DNA from: Candidatus Woesearchaeota archaeon
Lineage (GTDB): Archaea; Nanobdellota; Nanobdellia; Pacearchaeales; GW2011-AR1
Length of the DNA: 25,993 nt
Direction: 5' to 3'
NCBI GenBank assembly: GCA_964401065.1
Contig: CAYNWY010000002.1
Coordinates: forward strand, 1 to 25,993
Part shown: one piece after another, positions 4,658 to 8,917 of the stretch
Position numbering within the stretch: the stretch's first letter is position 1
Layout of the letters: the number at the start of each line of letters is the position of its first letter
Notes under the pieces: model-generated
What the model was told of the DNA's origin: nothing
Seen by the model: only the letters and a program-made list of their open reading frames with translations
The model's database searches: none
Translations under genes and position numbers: made by a program

Positions 4658-5047
4658 TTAAACAATTCTTACAATATTTCCATCTTTATCTAACTCAATA
4701 AAATGATTAACTATCCCATTAGAATAATCTTCACACTGATTTTCAGGTTTATTATCTTCAGATTCCCTTAGAACATGAACAATATCAACAGCATAATCAC
4801 CACAAACACCTAAACATTGTGAATTGATCTCTCCTGTAAAACTATTAAATTTACCAAGAGCACAACTAATTGCTTCTTGTTGCTCCAAAACTTGCTCTGG
4901 AGTATTGGAAGGATTCCCATGCTTAATCCAAACCCCCTGAGAATCTTTTATCCAATCATCTTCACTTCCACCAATAAAAAATCTGATAAAAATCCAGCCA
5001 AATATCAATAGAAAGATAATTCCAATAATCAAATAAATTTTTTTCAT
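4658..5047 (-). CDS. Membrane-anchored/secreted hypothetical protein
   Basis: N-terminal hydrophobic helix, then EDDWIKDSQGVWIKHGNPS and four Cys (CALG, CLGVC, QCEDY). Confidence 0.75.
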   Translation of the reverse strand: MKKIYLIIGIIFLLIFGWIFIRFFIGGSEDDWIKDSQGVWIKHGNPSNTPEQVLEQQEAISCALGKFNSFTGEINSQCLGVCGDYAVDIVHVLRESEDNKPENQCEDYSNGIVNHFIELDKDGNIVRIV

Positions 5048-5048
5048 T

Positions 5049-6323
5049 TTATTCTTCTAACCGTTTATTAAATTCACCTGCAATATTCTCAAGCATTTTC
5101 TCTTTAATCTTTTCCTTTGATTTTGCCCATTCACTATGTCCAAGAACCCAACCAAGCTTTACTAAAGCTGTTTCACTTAGCATATCTTCTAAATAAATAA
5201 CTCCTGCCTCAATTAATTTTCTTCCTGTAGAATAAACCAACCCATCAACCCTTCCATTAATGCATTGGGAAGTTCCGCAAAAAATCATTCCTTTTTCTGA
5301 AAGTTCTTTAATTTTTTTAATCCAGTTAGATGAAGTATGCCCCAAGCCACTTAATTCCAAAACAATTCCTTTGTATTTATTCTTGAAATAATAATCTAAA
5401 ATTTCAGGTGACTGCCCTGGATAAAATTTAATTAGAGCGACTTTTTCTTCAAATTTTGTATTAATTCTAATCTTTTTTCCATTGTTTCTTTTGTTAAAAA
5501 CATCAAGTATTTCTATGCCTTTTTCAGGAAAGACTTTTGCAATAGGCTTTCCATTAATAACCTTGAATGCATCTCTCCTGGAACTATGCATTTTTCTAAT
5601 CTTCACGCCCGGCATTGCATAACAAAAATTATCCTCGGAGTTTGCATGCCCAACTAATACAACTTCTGCAATATCGCTCAATCCAGCAACTTCAGCAGCA
5701 CACTGCAAATTTAAATTTGCATCTGAACTGGCCCTGTCAATGCTTCTCTGAGAATATGTAAGGACAACTGGCTTGTTCAATTTCCCAAGCATGAAACTCA
5801 AAGCACTAGAAGTATAATGTAAGAAATCAGTTCCATGAGTAATTACAACTCCCTGTATATTTGAATCATTCAACAATTTCTCACATGTTTTTGCAATCCT
5901 TTGCCAATCTTTAAAATTCATTTCTTCTGAAAATTTCATAAAAGGAGTTTCTATCTTTAAGATATTAACTTTTTCAAACAACTCAGGGTAAAATTTAAAC
6001 AGACTTTCTGGACTATCTAAGGGGTGAACTCCTCCTGTTTTGGGATTATATCGCGAGGCAATTGTCCCGCCAGTTATAATCATAGCTATGTTTGGTTTTA
6101 ATGAATCTTTCTTAATCTCAAATTTACTTTCCTTTTCACTGAATTTTTTCAATATCTCAACCTTCACAATTTCTTTCTTATTAAAACCAACATTATATCC
6201 GTTGCTTAATTTCAATAGAATAATCCCTTTTTCAGATTCAGGACTCTCAAGAAGAACTCCTTCATAGATTAATTTTCCAAAATGAACTTCAACAAAATCT
6301 CCGGGTTTAGCATGAATTTCCAT
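5049..6323 (-). CDS. gatD: Glu-tRNA(Gln) amidotransferase subunit D
   Basis: N-terminal SH3-like domain (LKLSNGYNVG) plus asparaginase domain: TGGTIASR, HGTD, SQRSIDR, KMHSSRRDAF, GLGH, ETALVKLGW. Confidence 0.95.
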   Translation of the reverse strand: MEIHAKPGDFVEVHFGKLIYEGVLLESPESEKGIILLKLSNGYNVGFNKKEIVKVEILKKFSEKESKFEIKKDSLKPNIAMIITGGTIASRYNPKTGGVHPLDSPESLFKFYPELFEKVNILKIETPFMKFSEEMNFKDWQRIAKTCEKLLNDSNIQGVVITHGTDFLHYTSSALSFMLGKLNKPVVLTYSQRSIDRASSDANLNLQCAAEVAGLSDIAEVVLVGHANSEDNFCYAMPGVKIRKMHSSRRDAFKVINGKPIAKVFPEKGIEILDVFNKRNNGKKIRINTKFEEKVALIKFYPGQSPEILDYYFKNKYKGIVLELSGLGHTSSNWIKKIKELSEKGMIFCGTSQCINGRVDGLVYSTGRKLIEAGVIYLEDMLSETALVKLGWVLGHSEWAKSKEKIKEKMLENIAGEFNKRLEE

Positions 6324-6375
6324 GTTAAGAACAAAAGAATCAACAATTAAAAACTTAATGATATTTAATAAATGA

Positions 6376-6447
6376 TGAGCCTGCCAGGAATCGAACCTAG
6401 ATAAAGCGGGCCGAAACCGCTTATGTTATCCTTTACATCACAGGCCC
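6376..6447 (-). tRNA. tRNA-Arg(TCG), intronless, CCA not encoded
   Basis: Folds by hand: acceptor GGGCCTG/CAGGCTC, D-stem ATGT/ACAT with loop AAAGGATA (A20 Arg identity element), anticodon stem AGCGG/CCGCT with loop TT-TCG-GC, variable TTAT, T-arm CTAGG-TTCGATT-CCTGG, discriminator A. Confidence 0.92.
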
Positions 6448-7188
6448 AATACTATAAGGGTCTAATTTATCATTTAAAATATCTTCTCTTTGACTTAAAC
6501 TAATCTTAGTTGGACAAAAACCAAATTTCCTCCAAACTAAATACCTTGTAAGTTTAACGGGATTTTTCATTCCAATAAGATTCATCCACTTATCAAAACC
6601 ATCAATTCCACTAATTGTTATAATATAATTTCTATTTTCATTAGATTTCTTAGAATCTCTAGAATGATAATTAAAAAGAATATCCAACTCATGAAGTATT
6701 TTAATAACTCCTTCAGCTAAATCTCTAGAAATCGTAACTATTTTTATAGTTGGATAATTATTATAATGCTTATTAAATTTATTAATCCCTTCATAAGACT
6801 TCCTAAATGACAAATTTCCATCTGTATCAAATAATCCTCTTAAAAAGGCTCCATAAATTTTGAAATCTCTGCTTTTTAATATAGATTCAGGAATTTTAAC
6901 AGATTTTGACTTTTTTCCAGTAGGAAAACTCAAACTAATCAGAGCATCCCTAATCTCTTGTTTATAGCTAACAAACCCATAAGACCCTCTAGAAAATAGT
7001 TTTCCCTTGATATCTAAATCAAATACTTGATTAAATAAAGGAATAACATGTGTATCATAATAACCTTTTTCTTCAACGTCTCCACTAATATCTACTTCTC
7101 CCTTATTTCTTTCTCTCAATCTCATGTAACCATCACCAGCATGAATTCCACAAATTTCAGCCAACTCAGGAGTTATCTCTATCATCAT
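6433..7188 (-). CDS. Free-standing double-motif LAGLIDADG (DOD-type) homing endonuclease-like protein
   Basis: Motif 1 AEICGIHAGDG and motif 2 FLRGLFDTDG, both with the acidic catalytic residue. No intein splicing motifs and no flanking intron. The last 15 nt overlap the tRNA. Confidence 0.88.
   Translation of the reverse strand: MMIEITPELAEICGIHAGDGYMRLRERNKGEVDISGDVEEKGYYDTHVIPLFNQVFDLDIKGKLFSRGSYGFVSYKQEIRDALISLSFPTGKKSKSVKIPESILKSRDFKIYGAFLRGLFDTDGNLSFRKSYEGINKFNKHYNNYPTIKIVTISRDLAEGVIKILHELDILFNYHSRDSKKSNENRNYIITISGIDGFDKWMNLIGMKNPVKLTRYLVWRKFGFCPTKISLSQREDILNDKLDPYSIGPVM
6472..6490 (-). promoter_or_regulatory. Putative BRE/TATA promoter for the tRNA, embedded in the LAGLIDADG coding sequence
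   Basis: Minus strand AAGAGAAGAT-A-TTTTAAAT, with the TATA-like octamer 25-32 nt upstream of the tRNA 5' end. Confidence 0.45.
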
Positions 7189-7189
7189 A

Positions 7190-7249
7190 TTTGTAATACA
7201 TATAAGTTTATAAACTTTATTATAAAATAGTATATATTTGTATTACAAA
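7190..7249. promoter_or_regulatory. Divergent promoter region with 11-bp perfect inverted repeat (operator candidate)
   Basis: TTTGTAATACA (7190-7200) and TGTATTACAAA (7239-7249) flank a 12-bp palindrome AGTTTATAAACT (7205-7216) that contains a TATA box. A second TTTATAAA at 7254-7261 precedes the small plus-strand ORF. Confidence 0.65.
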
Positions 7250-7282
7250 AATATTTATAAAGTTTGGAAGACTGAAAAAACT

Positions 7283-7408
7283 ATGACTGGAAAAAACAAG
7301 AAGAAAAATTATCCATATATTTATTTAATTAGAGTTGACAAAGAATTAAAAGAAAAGTTAAAGAAAGCAGGAAGTGGAAGAGTTAGAGAACATCTTAAAA
7401 GAATATAA
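7283..7408 (+). CDS. 41-aa basic protein, ribbon-helix-helix-like (not in the ORF track)
   Basis: Hand translation MTGKNKKKNYPYIYLIRVDKELKEKLKKAGSGRVREHLKRI*. Alternating beta strand followed by two short helices; TATA box 22-29 nt upstream of the ATG. Confidence 0.6.
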   Translation: MTGKNKKKNYPYIYLIRVDKELKEKLKKAGSGRVREHLKRI

Positions 7409-7459
7409 TTCCAACACTTAATTGAATAATTTTAAATACACTCTTTACTCTATTTAATA

Positions 7460-8917
7460 ATGGAAGAAAAAAGATCAGAAGAGGGTTTAACTGTAAAAAA
7501 ACAAGAGGATTTCTCAGAGTGGTTCACCCAAGTTTTGGAAAAAGCAGAATTAATTGATTTAAGATTAGATGTGAAGGGATTTACAGTTATCCGCCCATGG
7601 GCTGCTTTAACAATTGAGAACATGTTTGAATATTTAGAGAAAGAACTACAGAAAAAGGGGCATAAACCAACCTTCATGCCCTCAGTTATACCAAAAGAAA
7701 ATCTAATGAAAGAATCAGAGCATATAAAGGGGTTTACTCCTGAAGTTTTTTGGTTGAAAGATATTGGAGAAAACAAAGAACTTGCCTTGAGACCCACTTC
7801 TGAAACTCTTTACACACCAATGTTTAAATTATGGGTAAGAAGTTACAGGGATTTACCTTTAAAATTATACCAAAGAGGTTCTGTTTTCAGAATGGACACT
7901 AAAGCAACCCGTCCCCTAATCAGGGGGAGAGAATTTATCTGGATTGAGTGCCATGATGCATTTGAGACAAAAGAACAGGCAGAGGCTCAGGTTCAGGAAG
8001 ATATTGACACAACTGAAAAAGTTATGCATCAAATCTATGGAGTTCCATTTCTCCCAATGAAAAGACCAGAGTGGGATAAATTCGCAGGTGCAGAATACAC
8101 AGTTGGTTCAGATTGCTTTATGCCAGATGGAAAATTAATACAACAACCTTCAACTCACCTAATGGGGCAAAAATTCTCAAAAGCATTTGGTGCAACTTTC
8201 AAAAATAAAGAAGAAAAAGAAGAATATCTCTGGACAACAGCTTACGGCCCGGCAGTTTCAAGAATATTAGCTTCTGTAATTGCAACCCATGGAGATGATT
8301 CTGGACTAATCTTACCTTATTCAATCTCCCCCCTACAAGTGATAATCGTACCAATATTCAATGCAGAAAACAAAAATAAAATTCTGAAGAAATCCAAAGA
8401 AATTTTAGATAAATTAGAAAAAGAGAACATAAAAGCAGAAATAGATGAAAGAGAGTATAAACGCCCAGGAGAAAAATATAATATCTGGGAATTAAAAGGG
8501 GTTCCATTCAGGATTGAATTAGGTGAAAAAGAACTGAAGAAAGAAGAGGCAATACTCTTTACTAGAGATACAAAAAAGAGAGAAATTCTCAAACTAAGAG
8601 ATTTAAAGAAAATAAGCAAACTTGGAAAAGAATTTGATATTAGACTAAGGGAAAAAGCAGACAAATTCCTGCACAACAGAATAGTTTCCTGTTCAACCAA
8701 AAAAGAAATAAAAGAAGCCTTATCTGAAGGGAAATTAGCAAGAATAAACTTTTGTTCAACAGACAAACCAGGTATCCCCTGTGCAGAAACTGTTGAAAAA
8801 GAGTTATTAGGAGATGTAAGAGGAACTCTAGCAAACAAAAATGAAAAAGCAAATGGAAAGTGTTTATTTTGTGGAAAACCAGCAACAAAGGTTGTATATA
8901 TTGGTCGAAGCTACTAA
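7460..8917 (+). CDS. proS: Prolyl-tRNA synthetase, archaeal/eukaryotic type
   Basis: FSEWFTQVL, LALRPTSETL, PLIRGREFIWIE, KFAGA, YGPAVSRILA, WELKGVPFRIELG, C-terminal Zn-binding region CLFCG and terminal ..GRSY. Confidence 0.96.
   Translation: MEEKRSEEGLTVKKQEDFSEWFTQVLEKAELIDLRLDVKGFTVIRPWAALTIENMFEYLEKELQKKGHKPTFMPSVIPKENLMKESEHIKGFTPEVFWLKDIGENKELALRPTSETLYTPMFKLWVRSYRDLPLKLYQRGSVFRMDTKATRPLIRGREFIWIECHDAFETKEQAEAQVQEDIDTTEKVMHQIYGVPFLPMKRPEWDKFAGAEYTVGSDCFMPDGKLIQQPSTHLMGQKFSKAFGATFKNKEEKEEYLWTTAYGPAVSRILASVIATHGDDSGLILPYSISPLQVIIVPIFNAENKNKILKKSKEILDKLEKENIKAEIDEREYKRPGEKYNIWELKGVPFRIELGEKELKKEEAILFTRDTKKREILKLRDLKKISKLGKEFDIRLREKADKFLHNRIVSCSTKKEIKEALSEGKLARINFCSTDKPGIPCAETVEKELLGDVRGTLANKNEKANGKCLFCGKPATKVVYIGRSY

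What the first reader, a model, noticed from the sequence alone, without database searches (positions are those of the whole stretch)
6376..7188. Free-standing LAGLIDADG gene that ends inside a tRNA and carries the tRNA promoter
Seen: the ORF ends ...DPYSIGPVM*, where GGG CCT GTG ATG TAA are tRNA-Arg nucleotides 1-15, so the stop codon is in the D-arm. A BRE/TATA-like box for the tRNA lies within the last codons. Both LAGLIDADG motifs retain their acidic residues, and there is no intein or intron context. A C-terminal extension (YLVWRKFGFCPTKISLSQRE.IL) follows the nuclease core. Established: LAGLIDADG genes normally live in introns or inteins, or are domesticated (e.g. WhiA, maturases). Inference: either an intron-less homing element that uses tRNA 5' flanks as a safe harbour, or a domesticated tRNA-linked factor. 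In both cases tRNA 5' processing would cut off the mRNA's stop codon, coupling tRNA maturation to nuclease expression. This is the best candidate for an undescribed system in this window.
Basis: partly seen in the sequence, partly recalled or inferred. Interest (0 to 1): 0.82.

Follow-up and report, generated by a model that had tools for sequence, protein, structure and literature searches.

The report
Homing-nuclease cassette docked on tRNA-Arg
A roughly 950-bp selfish DNA cassette, made of a LAGLIDADG nuclease gene and a tiny partner gene, sits directly in front of a tRNA-Arg gene in DPANN archaea; it apparently supplies that tRNA with a replacement promoter and borrows its stop codon, an ordinary kind of mobile element in a niche not described before.

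Summary
A 251-aa two-motif LAGLIDADG ORF (6433-7188, minus strand) ends 15 nt inside tRNA-Arg(UCG) (6376-7447 is wrong; correct span 6376-6447). A box like the tRNA promoters of related genomes lies in its last codons.

It is not a one-off. In 77 informative homologous loci across DPANN, 76 have a tRNA directly after the ORF on the same strand: 75 Arg(UCG), one Leu(CAA).

It is not a fixed host factor. Of 45 proS-anchored loci from close relatives, 40 have the tRNA without the nuclease. Seven EF-1beta-anchored loci of a second lineage also lack it.

Filled alleles differ from empty ones by about 950-980 bp: the nuclease gene plus a divergent 41-aa gene. The two share a conserved region with two promoters and two palindromes. 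Some filled alleles keep the displaced native promoter, or a dead 5' tRNA fragment, beyond the cassette. The neighbouring intact tRNA is a different allele.

Both catalytic aspartates are invariant (74/74) and dN/dS is about 0.07-0.2.

Best reading: a free-standing homing-endonuclease cassette that targets tRNA 5' ends. The proposed coupling of stop codon to tRNA processing is not conserved. This is a new variant of a known kind. Cleavage is untested.

The parts
6376..6447 (-). tRNA-Arg(UCG), no intron, complete cloverleaf
   Evidence: Rfam RF00005, 54.1 bits, model positions 1-71; ARAGORN anticodon tcg
6433..7188 (-). Free-standing single-chain LAGLIDADG endonuclease gene, 251 aa; the TAA stop at 6433-6435 is tRNA nt 13-15
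   Evidence: ORF list; Pfam LAGLIDADG_3 and Hom_end; model pLDDT 91; Foldseek matches to TliVMA intein endonuclease, I-Tsp061I, PI-SceI, I-DmoI; dN/dS 0.07-0.2
6433..6447 (-). 15-nt overlap of the ORF end (G-P-V-M-stop) with tRNA nt 1-15
   Evidence: Sequence, tRNA ends. In homologues the stop is often tRNA U8-A9-G10 read as TAG
7129..7161 (-). LAGLIDADG motif 1 (AEICGIHAGDG, residues 10-20); catalytic D19 is at 7132-7134
   Evidence: Alignment A1; D19 invariant in 74/74
6817..6846 (-). LAGLIDADG motif 2 (FLRGLFDTDG, residues 115-124); catalytic D123 is at 6820-6822
   Evidence: Alignment A1; D121 and D123 invariant in 74/74
6436..6597 (-). Conserved C-terminal extension (about residues 198-251; W201, N209, W219 and P226 nearly invariant). 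Its last part also encodes the tRNA promoter-like box
6472..6489 (-). BRE/TATA-like box for the tRNA inside codons R-E-D-I-L-N: AGAGAAGAT at -42..-34 and ATTTTAAAT at -33..-25 from tRNA G1
   Evidence: The position is conserved in filled alleles. Boxes of the same sequence type and distance stand in front of other tRNA genes of related genomes. The Leu238 codon is TTA in 72% of sequences against 42% gene-wide. Function is inferred
7187..7218 (-). Promoter/operator module 2: TTTATAAA box plus the palindrome TTTGTA-N-TACAAA, ending at the nuclease ATG (likely a leaderless start)
   Evidence: 32-nt direct repeat; conserved in all 19 cassettes examined
7234..7265 (-). Promoter/operator module 1: second copy of TATA box plus palindrome, about 20 nt from the start of the small ORF on the other strand
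7283..7408 (+). Small basic 41-aa gene (MTGKNKKKNYPYIYLIRVDKELKEKLKKAGSGRVREHLKRI), divergent partner of the nuclease gene. A ribbon-helix-helix-like repressor is a guess, not a result
   Evidence: An HMM finds it next to the nuclease gene in the window, in 15 of loci L001-L080 and in all 5 nuclease-bearing proS loci, and in none of the 40 nuclease-free loci. No Pfam or PDB match; single-sequence model weak
6448..7418 (.). The inserted cassette as a whole (about 950-970 bp), defined by where homology to empty alleles stops
   Evidence: The left homology arm (gatD plus tRNA) ends at window 6448-6451. The right arm resumes at about 7397-7419, just past the small-ORF stop. L119 against L118: a 978-bp cassette in place of 350 bp of native spacer

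Best explanation
The ORF is the nuclease gene of a small selfish cassette of about 950 bp. The cassette holds a divergent 41-aa gene, a shared control region with two promoters and two palindromes, and the LAGLIDADG endonuclease gene. It is a free-standing homing-endonuclease element whose fixed docking site is the 5' end of a tRNA gene: tRNA-Arg(UCG) here, tRNA-Leu(CAA) in a sister subfamily.

Proposed mechanism:
1. The nuclease cuts cassette-free tRNA-Arg loci in or near the 5' half of the tRNA gene. (Inferred.)
2. Repair from a cassette-bearing allele copies the cassette together with its linked tRNA allele. The tRNA serves as one homology arm. The upstream flank is the other arm in close relatives; in distant recipients the ends are joined instead, which leaves the old promoter or a dead 5' tRNA fragment beyond the cassette. 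(Inferred from the junction anatomy, which is shown.)
3. The insertion separates the tRNA from its native promoter, so the last codons of the nuclease gene carry a substitute BRE/TATA at the usual distance and keep the tRNA expressed. (Inferred from sequence and position.)
4. The ORF has no stop codon of its own in this lineage and runs into the tRNA until conserved tRNA nucleotides supply one: T13-A14-A15 here, U8-A9-G10 in many relatives. This is a by-product of tight packing, not a conserved regulatory device. (Shown: the overlap varies.)
5. The small protein probably binds the two palindromes that sit on the cassette's promoters and keeps nuclease expression low. (Inferred.)
For: (a) The tRNA link is conserved. 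361 relatives were found in species-representative genomes. Of 77 informative loci among the best 80, 76 have a same-strand tRNA directly after the ORF: 75 Arg(UCG), many with one or more introns, and one Leu(CAA).

(b) Presence and absence both occur among close relatives. Of 45 informative proS-anchored loci, 40 have tRNA-Arg(UCG) but no nuclease gene. At ProRS identity of 81% or more the count is 23 without and 1 with. In a second lineage, all 7 sampled EF-1beta-anchored loci have the tRNA without the gene, while at least 11 loci with the same synteny carry it.

(c) The indel is exact. Homology to empty alleles stops at tRNA +1 and resumes just past the small ORF. The small ORF occurs only together with the nuclease gene.

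(d) There were several independent insertions. Beyond the cassette, L086 keeps the native promoter, the same box and flanking bases as in nuclease-free L088, with the junction at about -14. L003, L015 and L017 keep a TATA-like box of the same type. L001, L005, L016, L033 and L056 keep 20-29 nt of a dead tRNA-Arg 5' end. L009 and L033 keep a whole second tRNA. In each case checked, the intact tRNA next to the nuclease gene is a different allele.

(e) L119 against L118: the right flank is 100% identical over 3072 bp, while the cassette side is only 75-80% identical.

(f) The enzyme looks active. The fold is that of two-domain LAGLIDADG nucleases, D19 and D123 are invariant in 74/74, and dN/dS is 0.07-0.2.

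(g) Degenerate copies exist: L015, L076, L078 and L080.

(h) A sister subfamily shows the same architecture on tRNA-Leu(CAA) in 4 of 4 loci, which points to target switching.

(i) Cassette G+C is 25-29%, against 30-40% in the flanks.
Against: No cleavage activity or target site has been shown.

The window's tRNA is almost identical to the tRNAs of two nuclease-free alleles (L083, L114). No immunity polymorphism is visible, so how the filled allele escapes self-cutting is unexplained.

Pseudogenes are few (4 of 80), purifying selection is strong, and synteny is stable within sublineages. All this also fits long vertical persistence.

The L118/L119 discontinuity could be a chimeric metagenome contig.

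The EF-1beta sample deliberately avoided contigs already known to carry the gene. The fairer tally there is roughly 3 with to 5 without.

No copy was found on viral contigs, and no vehicle for transfer between cells is known.
Confidence: 0.75

Rival explanations
1. A domesticated LAGLIDADG protein that serves its neighbouring tRNA, for example as a gene-specific transcription factor like WhiA or as a processing or maturation helper, and is kept next to the tRNA because they work together.
For: The adjacency to one specific tRNA holds across several DPANN phyla. Purifying selection is strong and the length is uniform. The C-terminal helical extension is conserved. WhiA is among the structural matches (rank 11). 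The gene may be fixed in some sublineages with stable synteny.
Against: The gene is absent from 40 of 45 syntenic loci of close relatives, and from 7 of 7 sampled loci of a second lineage, all of which keep the tRNA. Both catalytic aspartates are invariant, unlike WhiA. Pfam WhiA_N scores below its cut-off (E 0.061). Independent insertion junctions with displaced promoters and dead tRNA fragments exist. A sister subfamily sits on a different tRNA.
Confidence: 0.1
2. An ancient, vertically inherited but dispensable gene that is simply being lost again and again, with no present-day mobility. The patchy distribution would reflect loss, not gain.
For: Local synteny is stable within sublineages. 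In several pairs nuclease identity roughly tracks ProRS identity, for example window-L001 69% against 63% and L013-L014 77% against 80%. No viral or plasmid carrier was found.
Against: Loss does not explain displaced native promoters, dead 5' tRNA fragments, or second tRNA copies of a different allele beyond the cassette. It does not explain nuclease identities of 47-75% at the same ProRS identity of about 64-70%. It does not explain the switch to tRNA-Leu. A dispensable gene with no function of its own should not show dN/dS near 0.1 with an intact active site.
Confidence: 0.1
3. A two-gene addiction or defence module (small DNA-binding antitoxin-like protein plus nuclease toxin) that happens to lodge at tRNA genes and persists by post-segregational killing rather than by homing.
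For: The small basic gene and the nuclease gene always occur together in the window's subclade and share palindromic operators. This layout recalls toxin-antitoxin regulation.
Against: The small gene was not detected next to the nuclease in most of the more distant lineages (16 of 81 loci, counting the window), while the tRNA link persists there. The two genes are divergent, not co-transcribed. The small protein has no family match. LAGLIDADG nucleases are not known as toxins of such modules (my own knowledge). The precise docking at tRNA +1 would be left unexplained.
Confidence: 0.05

Closest known systems
Phage T4 SegB and other free-standing Seg/Mob homing endonucleases ('intronless homing')
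   Same: A free-standing nuclease gene with its own promoter, lodged among or next to tRNA genes. SegB recognises a site that includes a conserved tRNA motif and drives inheritance of its own gene together with the neighbouring tRNA genes (PMC2330249). Here too the cassette seems to travel with its linked tRNA allele.
   Different: SegB is a GIY-YIG enzyme of a phage; this is a LAGLIDADG enzyme in cellular DPANN chromosomes. This cassette docks exactly at tRNA +1, reads into the tRNA for its stop codon, carries a replacement tRNA promoter in its coding tail, and has a small partner gene. Cleavage is proven for SegB and not here.
Archaeal intron- and intein-encoded LAGLIDADG endonucleases (I-DmoI, I-Tsp061I, PI-PfuI, TliVMA intein endonuclease)
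   Same: The same two-motif single-chain fold, and these are the closest sequence and structure matches. Both catalytic acids are retained.
   Different: There is no intron and no intein. The element cannot splice itself out, so harm to the host is avoided differently: it sits just outside the mature tRNA and supplies a promoter. It also has an extra conserved C-terminal extension of about 50 aa.
WhiA and LAGLIDADG maturases (domesticated LAGLIDADG proteins)
   Same: The LAGLIDADG scaffold with an added C-terminal helical region. WhiA and the bI3 maturase appear among the structural matches.
   Different: Those proteins have lost catalytic residues or gained an RNA or transcription role, and they are fixed in their lineages. 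This one keeps both aspartates in 74/74 sequences and is patchily distributed.
Integrase-borne genomic islands that target tRNA genes
   Same: They use a conserved tRNA gene as a landing site, leave the tRNA functional, and leave a partial tRNA duplicate at the far end of the insert. Dead 5' fragments are seen here in L001, L005, L016, L033 and L056.
   Different: Those elements use a tyrosine integrase and usually the 3' half of the tRNA (my own knowledge). This cassette has no recombinase, is under 1 kb, and sits at the 5' end.

Membership tests
LAGLIDADG homing endonucleases (single-chain, two-motif) | Two LAGLIDADG motifs, each ending in a catalytic acidic residue | tested here: met
   GIHAGDGY (D19) and FLRGLFDTDG (D123); both invariant in 74/74 homologues
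LAGLIDADG homing endonucleases (single-chain, two-motif) | Sequence-family membership above the curated threshold | tested here: met
   Pfam LAGLIDADG_3, 36.5 bits against a cut-off of 22.5; Hom_end, 24.9 against 21.1
LAGLIDADG homing endonucleases (single-chain, two-motif) | Pseudo-dimeric alpha-beta-beta-alpha-beta-beta-alpha fold | tested here: met
   Model pLDDT 91, pTM 0.90; Foldseek probability 1.0 to TliVMA intein endonuclease, I-Tsp061I, PI-SceI, I-DmoI
LAGLIDADG homing endonucleases (single-chain, two-motif) | Site-specific double-strand cleavage of a long (about 20 bp) DNA target | not testable with these tools
   Needs purified protein and empty-site DNA
LAGLIDADG homing endonucleases (single-chain, two-motif) | Patchy presence at one fixed genomic site, with empty alleles in relatives | tested here: met
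   40 of 45 proS-anchored loci and 7 of 7 sampled EF-1beta-anchored loci are empty. The site is always a tRNA 5' end
Intein- or intron-encoded homing endonucleases | The gene is embedded in a self-splicing intein (Hint domains) or in a group I or archaeal bulge-helix-bulge intron | tested here: not met
   No Hint domain. The gene has its own ATG and a conserved TATA box upstream. No intron RNA family was found and the tRNA downstream is complete
Free-standing homing endonucleases of the T4 Seg/Mob type | GIY-YIG or HNH catalytic domain | tested here: not met
   The domain is LAGLIDADG. This is an analogue in behaviour, not a member
Free-standing homing endonucleases of the T4 Seg/Mob type | Spread by cutting the cognate locus that lacks the gene, with co-conversion of flanking markers | tested here: inconclusive
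   Consistent observations: a different tRNA allele next to the cassette, displaced old promoters and fragments, and an identity break at the cassette edge. No direct test
WhiA-like domesticated LAGLIDADG factors | Catalytic residues lost, a C-terminal helix-turn-helix, and fixation in the lineage | tested here: not met
   The aspartates are retained. WhiA_N scores E 0.061, below its cut-off. The gene is absent from most close relatives
tRNA-targeting integrative elements | Encodes a site-specific recombinase and integrates into the tRNA 3' half | tested here: not met
   The cassette holds only two ORFs, neither a recombinase. The junction is at tRNA +1
Ribbon-helix-helix regulators (for the 41-aa partner gene) | Recognisable RHH family match or a beta-alpha-alpha fold | tested here: inconclusive
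   No Pfam hit. No meaningful PDB profile hit. The single-sequence model has pLDDT 68 and shows two helices only. A strand-like stretch YLIRV followed by helix, a G-S turn and a second helix fits RHH, but that rests on my own knowledge only

The most novel reading that the evidence does not exclude
The cassette may be more than a passive hitch-hiker. It removes the native promoter and drives the tRNA from a promoter written into its own coding tail, and it brings its own tRNA allele. That could make the cell's only tRNA-Arg(UCG) (or tRNA-Leu(CAA)) depend on keeping the cassette, a 'promoter capture' form of addiction. The unusually frequent single and multiple introns in these tRNA-Arg genes could then be the host's counter-move, breaking up the nuclease's target. 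In alleles where the ORF ends inside the tRNA, 5' processing of read-through transcripts could also limit nuclease synthesis.
Probability: 0.15. Interest if true: 0.85.

Novelty: new variant of a known kind. Interest (0 to 1): 0.66.

Why it matters
Homing endonucleases are thought to survive by hiding in self-splicing introns or inteins. Free-standing ones are known mainly from phages and organelles.

This is a large family in cellular chromosomes: at least 361 species-level genomes across several DPANN phyla. It avoids harming its host differently, by parking exactly at the 5' edge of a tRNA gene and apparently carrying a replacement promoter for that tRNA inside its own reading frame.

It has at least two tRNA specificities, Arg-UCG and Leu-CAA. 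That makes it a natural system for studying how LAGLIDADG specificity shifts, and a possible source of new long-target nucleases.

It also bears on annotation. These genes, the reading frames that overlap the tRNA, and the dead tRNA fragments left behind will confuse gene callers and tRNA counts in DPANN genomes.

It offers a testable link between mobile nucleases and the many tRNA introns of these archaea.

Tried and rejected
1. One-off stop-codon loss or chimeric assembly. Rejected: the junction recurs in 76 of 77 informative loci.

2. An intron or intein context. Rejected: no Hint domain, and no intron RNA family or split tRNA in the window.

3. ProRS as a vertical marker for a congruence test. 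The correlation was uninformative (Spearman about 0), because ProRS comes in two forms only about 35% identical and most pairs are saturated. Only pairs with ProRS at or above about 60% identity were used, and only qualitatively.

4. A search for an immunity polymorphism in the tRNA, comparing D-arm, T-loop and intron presence between filled and empty alleles. None was found. The window's tRNA nearly equals those of empty L083 and L114, and introns are about equally frequent in both classes.

5. A viral carrier. No relative was found on 2.9 million viral contigs.

6. Family assignment of the 41-aa protein. No Pfam hit, no PDB profile hit, and a weak single-sequence fold. 'RHH' stays a guess.

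7. NCBIfam and direct PDB sequence search for the nuclease. No hits.

8. Literature. Six searches found no description of a LAGLIDADG gene linked to tRNA 5' flanks in archaea. DPANN LAGLIDADG genes are reported only in rRNA group I introns (PMC6125680).

9. Not every distant relative is tRNA-linked. L165 has no tRNA, and in L164 the gene is convergent with tRNA-Leu.
Full report
**1. What is in the window**

The minus strand carries a 251-aa ORF at 6433-7188. Rfam places tRNA-Arg(UCG) at 6376-6447 (54.1 bits); ARAGORN gives 6374-6448. The last five codons, GGG CCT GTG ATG TAA, are tRNA nucleotides 1-15. The overlap is therefore 15 nt, and the stop codon is tRNA T13-A14-A15.

The protein matches Pfam LAGLIDADG_3 and Hom_end above their thresholds and has no intein domain. 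An alignment-based model is confident (pLDDT 91). It superposes on the TliVMA intein endonuclease domain, I-Tsp061I, PI-SceI and I-DmoI. A sequence profile also finds the TliVMA and PI-PfuI endonuclease domains.

Downstream lies gatD (5049-6323, minus strand) and upstream proS (7460-8917, plus strand).

**2. The tRNA link is a family trait**

The protein has 269 database relatives of uniform length, about 250 aa, all from DPANN archaea. Many of their C-termini end in G-P, G-L, G-S or G-P-V-M, which means they read into a tRNA 5' end.

A scan of species-representative genomes found 361 relatives. The 80 best loci were examined with ARAGORN (with and without introns), BLAST for tRNA pieces, Rfam and inspection by eye.
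- 77 loci have enough downstream sequence to judge.
- 76 of these have a tRNA directly after the ORF on the same strand.
- 75 are tRNA-Arg(UCG), many with one intron and two (L046, L077) with several. One (L079) is tRNA-Leu(CAA).
- The exception, L076, has a broken ORF and an inverted tRNA.

The ORF end lies anywhere from 142 nt before the tRNA to 50 nt inside it. The common cases are a stop at tRNA U8-A9-G10 (read as TAG) and a stop inside the promoter box about 26 nt upstream.

**3. The gene is absent from most close relatives**

I anchored on the neighbouring proS gene and fetched 80 metagenome loci. Forty-five are informative.
- 40 have tRNA-Arg(UCG) upstream of proS but no nuclease gene.
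- 5 carry it: L119, L121 and L131, plus fragments at the contig edges of L086 and L123.
- Among relatives with ProRS at least 81% identical to the window's, the count is 23 without and 1 with.

Some empty alleles have the tRNA 116-159 nt from proS (L081, L082, L092, L094, L105, L116, L124). Others have an HtrA-like protease gene in between.

In a second, distant lineage (Iainarchaeota-like), the gene lies beside the EF-1beta gene in at least 11 loci. Seven loci representing five other EF-1beta variants all have the tRNA but no nuclease gene. I chose those five to avoid contigs already known to carry the gene. The fair tally there is about 3 with to 5 without.

**4. What exactly is inserted**

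Homology between the window and empty alleles runs through gatD and the tRNA and stops at window 6448-6451, which is tRNA +1. It resumes at about 7397-7419. The insert is therefore about 950-970 bp.

It contains three things:
- The nuclease gene.
- A 94-nt control region.
- A divergent 41-aa gene at 7283-7408.

That small gene accompanies the nuclease gene in the window, in 15 of loci L001-L080, and in all 5 filled proS loci. It is in none of the 40 empty ones. It has no family or structure match.

The control region is conserved in all 19 cassettes examined. It holds two copies of a TTTATAAA box followed by the palindrome TTTGTA-N-TACAAA. One copy ends at the nuclease ATG; the other lies about 20 nt from the small gene's ATG. 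I read these as two promoters with operator sites. That is inference.

**5. Traces of separate insertion events**

Beyond the small gene's stop codon, filled alleles differ.
- L086 keeps the native tRNA promoter, the same box and flanking bases as in empty L088, with the cassette joined about 14 nt before the position of the tRNA.
- L003, L015 and L017 keep a TATA-like box of the same type.
- L001, L005, L016, L033 and L056 keep 20, 22, 23, 28 and 29 nt of a dead tRNA-Arg 5' end.
- L033 and L009 keep a whole second tRNA copy.
- In each case checked, the intact tRNA next to the nuclease gene differs in sequence from the displaced piece. The cassette arrived with its own tRNA allele.

L119 and L118 are 100% identical for 3072 bp on the proS side, up to the cassette edge. 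They are only 75-80% identical on the tRNA side. This is either a natural recombination joint or a chimeric contig.

A few copies are degenerate: L015, L076, L078 and L080. The cassette is poorer in G+C than its flanks.

**6. The enzyme is kept intact**

D19 and D123, the acidic ends of the two motifs, are invariant in 74 of 74 full-length homologues. E11, G14, G18, G20, E40, D121, G124, N209 and W219 are also invariant. Pairwise dN/dS is 0.07-0.2.

At equal ProRS identity (about 64-70%), nuclease identity ranges from 47% to 75%. That hints at some horizontal movement, but the overall correlation test was uninformative.

**7. The promoter claim**

Empty alleles have a clear box (AAAGTATAAAAAG) about 31-38 nt before the tRNA. 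Filled alleles have lost that position to the cassette. They carry AGAT-ATTTTAAAT at -37..-25, inside codons D-I-L-N/K of the conserved tail QREDILNGKLD.

Other tRNA genes in related genomes have the same kind of box (AAGATTTTAAAT and similar) at about -36..-24. The Leu codon in that box is TTA in 72% of sequences, against 42% gene-wide.

In the Iainarchaeota-like group the ORF is longer and stops inside the box...CCT AAA GAT TAA AAA. The Leu-type subfamily has the same arrangement.

It has not been tested functionally.

**8. A sister subfamily on tRNA-Leu**

The protein of L079 is 38% identical to the window's. Its relatives (P0121-P0171) form a second subfamily. All four loci examined (L079, L161, L162, L163) end 10 nt inside tRNA-Leu(CAA), using U8-A9-G10 as the stop.

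More distant relatives vary. L166 is again followed by tRNA-Arg(UCG), L164 is convergent with tRNA-Leu, and L165 has no tRNA.

**9. Interpretation**

The pattern is that of a homing endonuclease gene:
- One fixed docking site.
- Patchy presence among close relatives.
- A precise indel.
- Independent junctions that carry displaced host sequence.
- An intact active site under selection.
- Occasional decay.
- A switch of target in a sister clade.

It is free-standing, so it cannot splice itself out. It appears to avoid harm by sitting just outside the mature tRNA and supplying a promoter.

The end-points of the dead fragments (nt 20-29) suggest that the break falls in the 5' half of the tRNA gene or at the start of the anticodon stem. 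This is only a lead.

The overlap of stop codon and tRNA follows from the tight junction and varies between lineages. I do not regard processing-coupled expression as a feature of the system.

The domesticated-factor reading is disfavoured for the lineages tested. It cannot be excluded where the gene might be fixed.

**10. Comparison and novelty**

The closest behaviour is that of phage T4 SegB. SegB is a free-standing GIY-YIG endonuclease in a tRNA gene cluster that recognises a tRNA motif and drags neighbouring tRNA genes along (PMC2330249). The closest relatives by sequence and fold are archaeal intein- and intron-encoded LAGLIDADG enzymes.

Literature searches found LAGLIDADG genes of DPANN only in rRNA group I introns (PMC6125680). 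Nothing was found on tRNA 5' flanks.

I rate it a new variant of a known kind: a known mechanism, in a new niche, with a new way of staying harmless.

**11. Open problems**
- No cleavage data exist.
- There is no visible immunity difference between the window's tRNA and those of empty L083 and L114.
- The role of the 41-aa protein is unknown.
- The route of transfer between cells is unknown; no viral copies were found.

Noticed in passing
L004 vs L007, L003 vs window, and others (ProRS genes within 4 kb of the nuclease gene): ProRS next to this locus comes in two forms only about 35% identical to each other. One lies upstream and divergent; the other lies downstream on the same strand. Genomes whose nuclease genes are 80% identical can carry different forms.
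   Followed up: partly
L046 about 4724-4960; L077 about 910-1190; L099-L101 3760-3943: tRNA-Arg(UCG) genes with two or three introns (D-arm, anticodon loop, T-loop) or with a single 112-nt intron. ARAGORN and Rfam miss or mislabel them. Introns occur in both filled and empty alleles.
   Followed up: partly
L079 3168-3282; L162 1661-1774; L161 1-80: A 5S rRNA gene lies just upstream of the tRNA-Leu(CAA)-type nuclease gene in three of four loci.
   Followed up: no
L009 8026-8198; L163 4025-4232: Rfam RT-16 RNA matches above the gathering score (65.5 and 61.3 bits) a few kb from the nuclease genes.
   Followed up: no
L119 3800-6871 vs L118 882-3953, and L119 357-2821 vs L137/L118: 3 kb of 100% identity ends abruptly at the cassette edge, and the other side is only 75-80% identical. 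This is either a natural recombination joint or a chimeric metagenome contig.
   Followed up: partly
L164 1379-2841; L166 1863-2880; L165 2001-3457: More distant relatives sit differently. One is convergent with tRNA-Leu(CAA), with a tRNA-Arg(UCG) 550 nt upstream. One lies between tRNA-Arg(CCU) and tRNA-Arg(UCG). One has no tRNA and is followed by an AlaX-like gene.
   Followed up: no
L085 3691-3885; L167-L173 about 2300-2480: Small zinc-ribbon genes lie next to the empty tRNA-Arg locus. In L167 and L170 the gene is called ribosomal protein aS21 by Pfam; in L085 it is an unnamed cysteine-rich 64-aa ORF. Such short genes are easily missed by ORF-length filters.
   Followed up: no
L001 3751-3912: The small partner gene's reading frame runs antisense through the dead tRNA 5' fragment, which adds about 10 residues to its C-terminus.
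   Followed up: no
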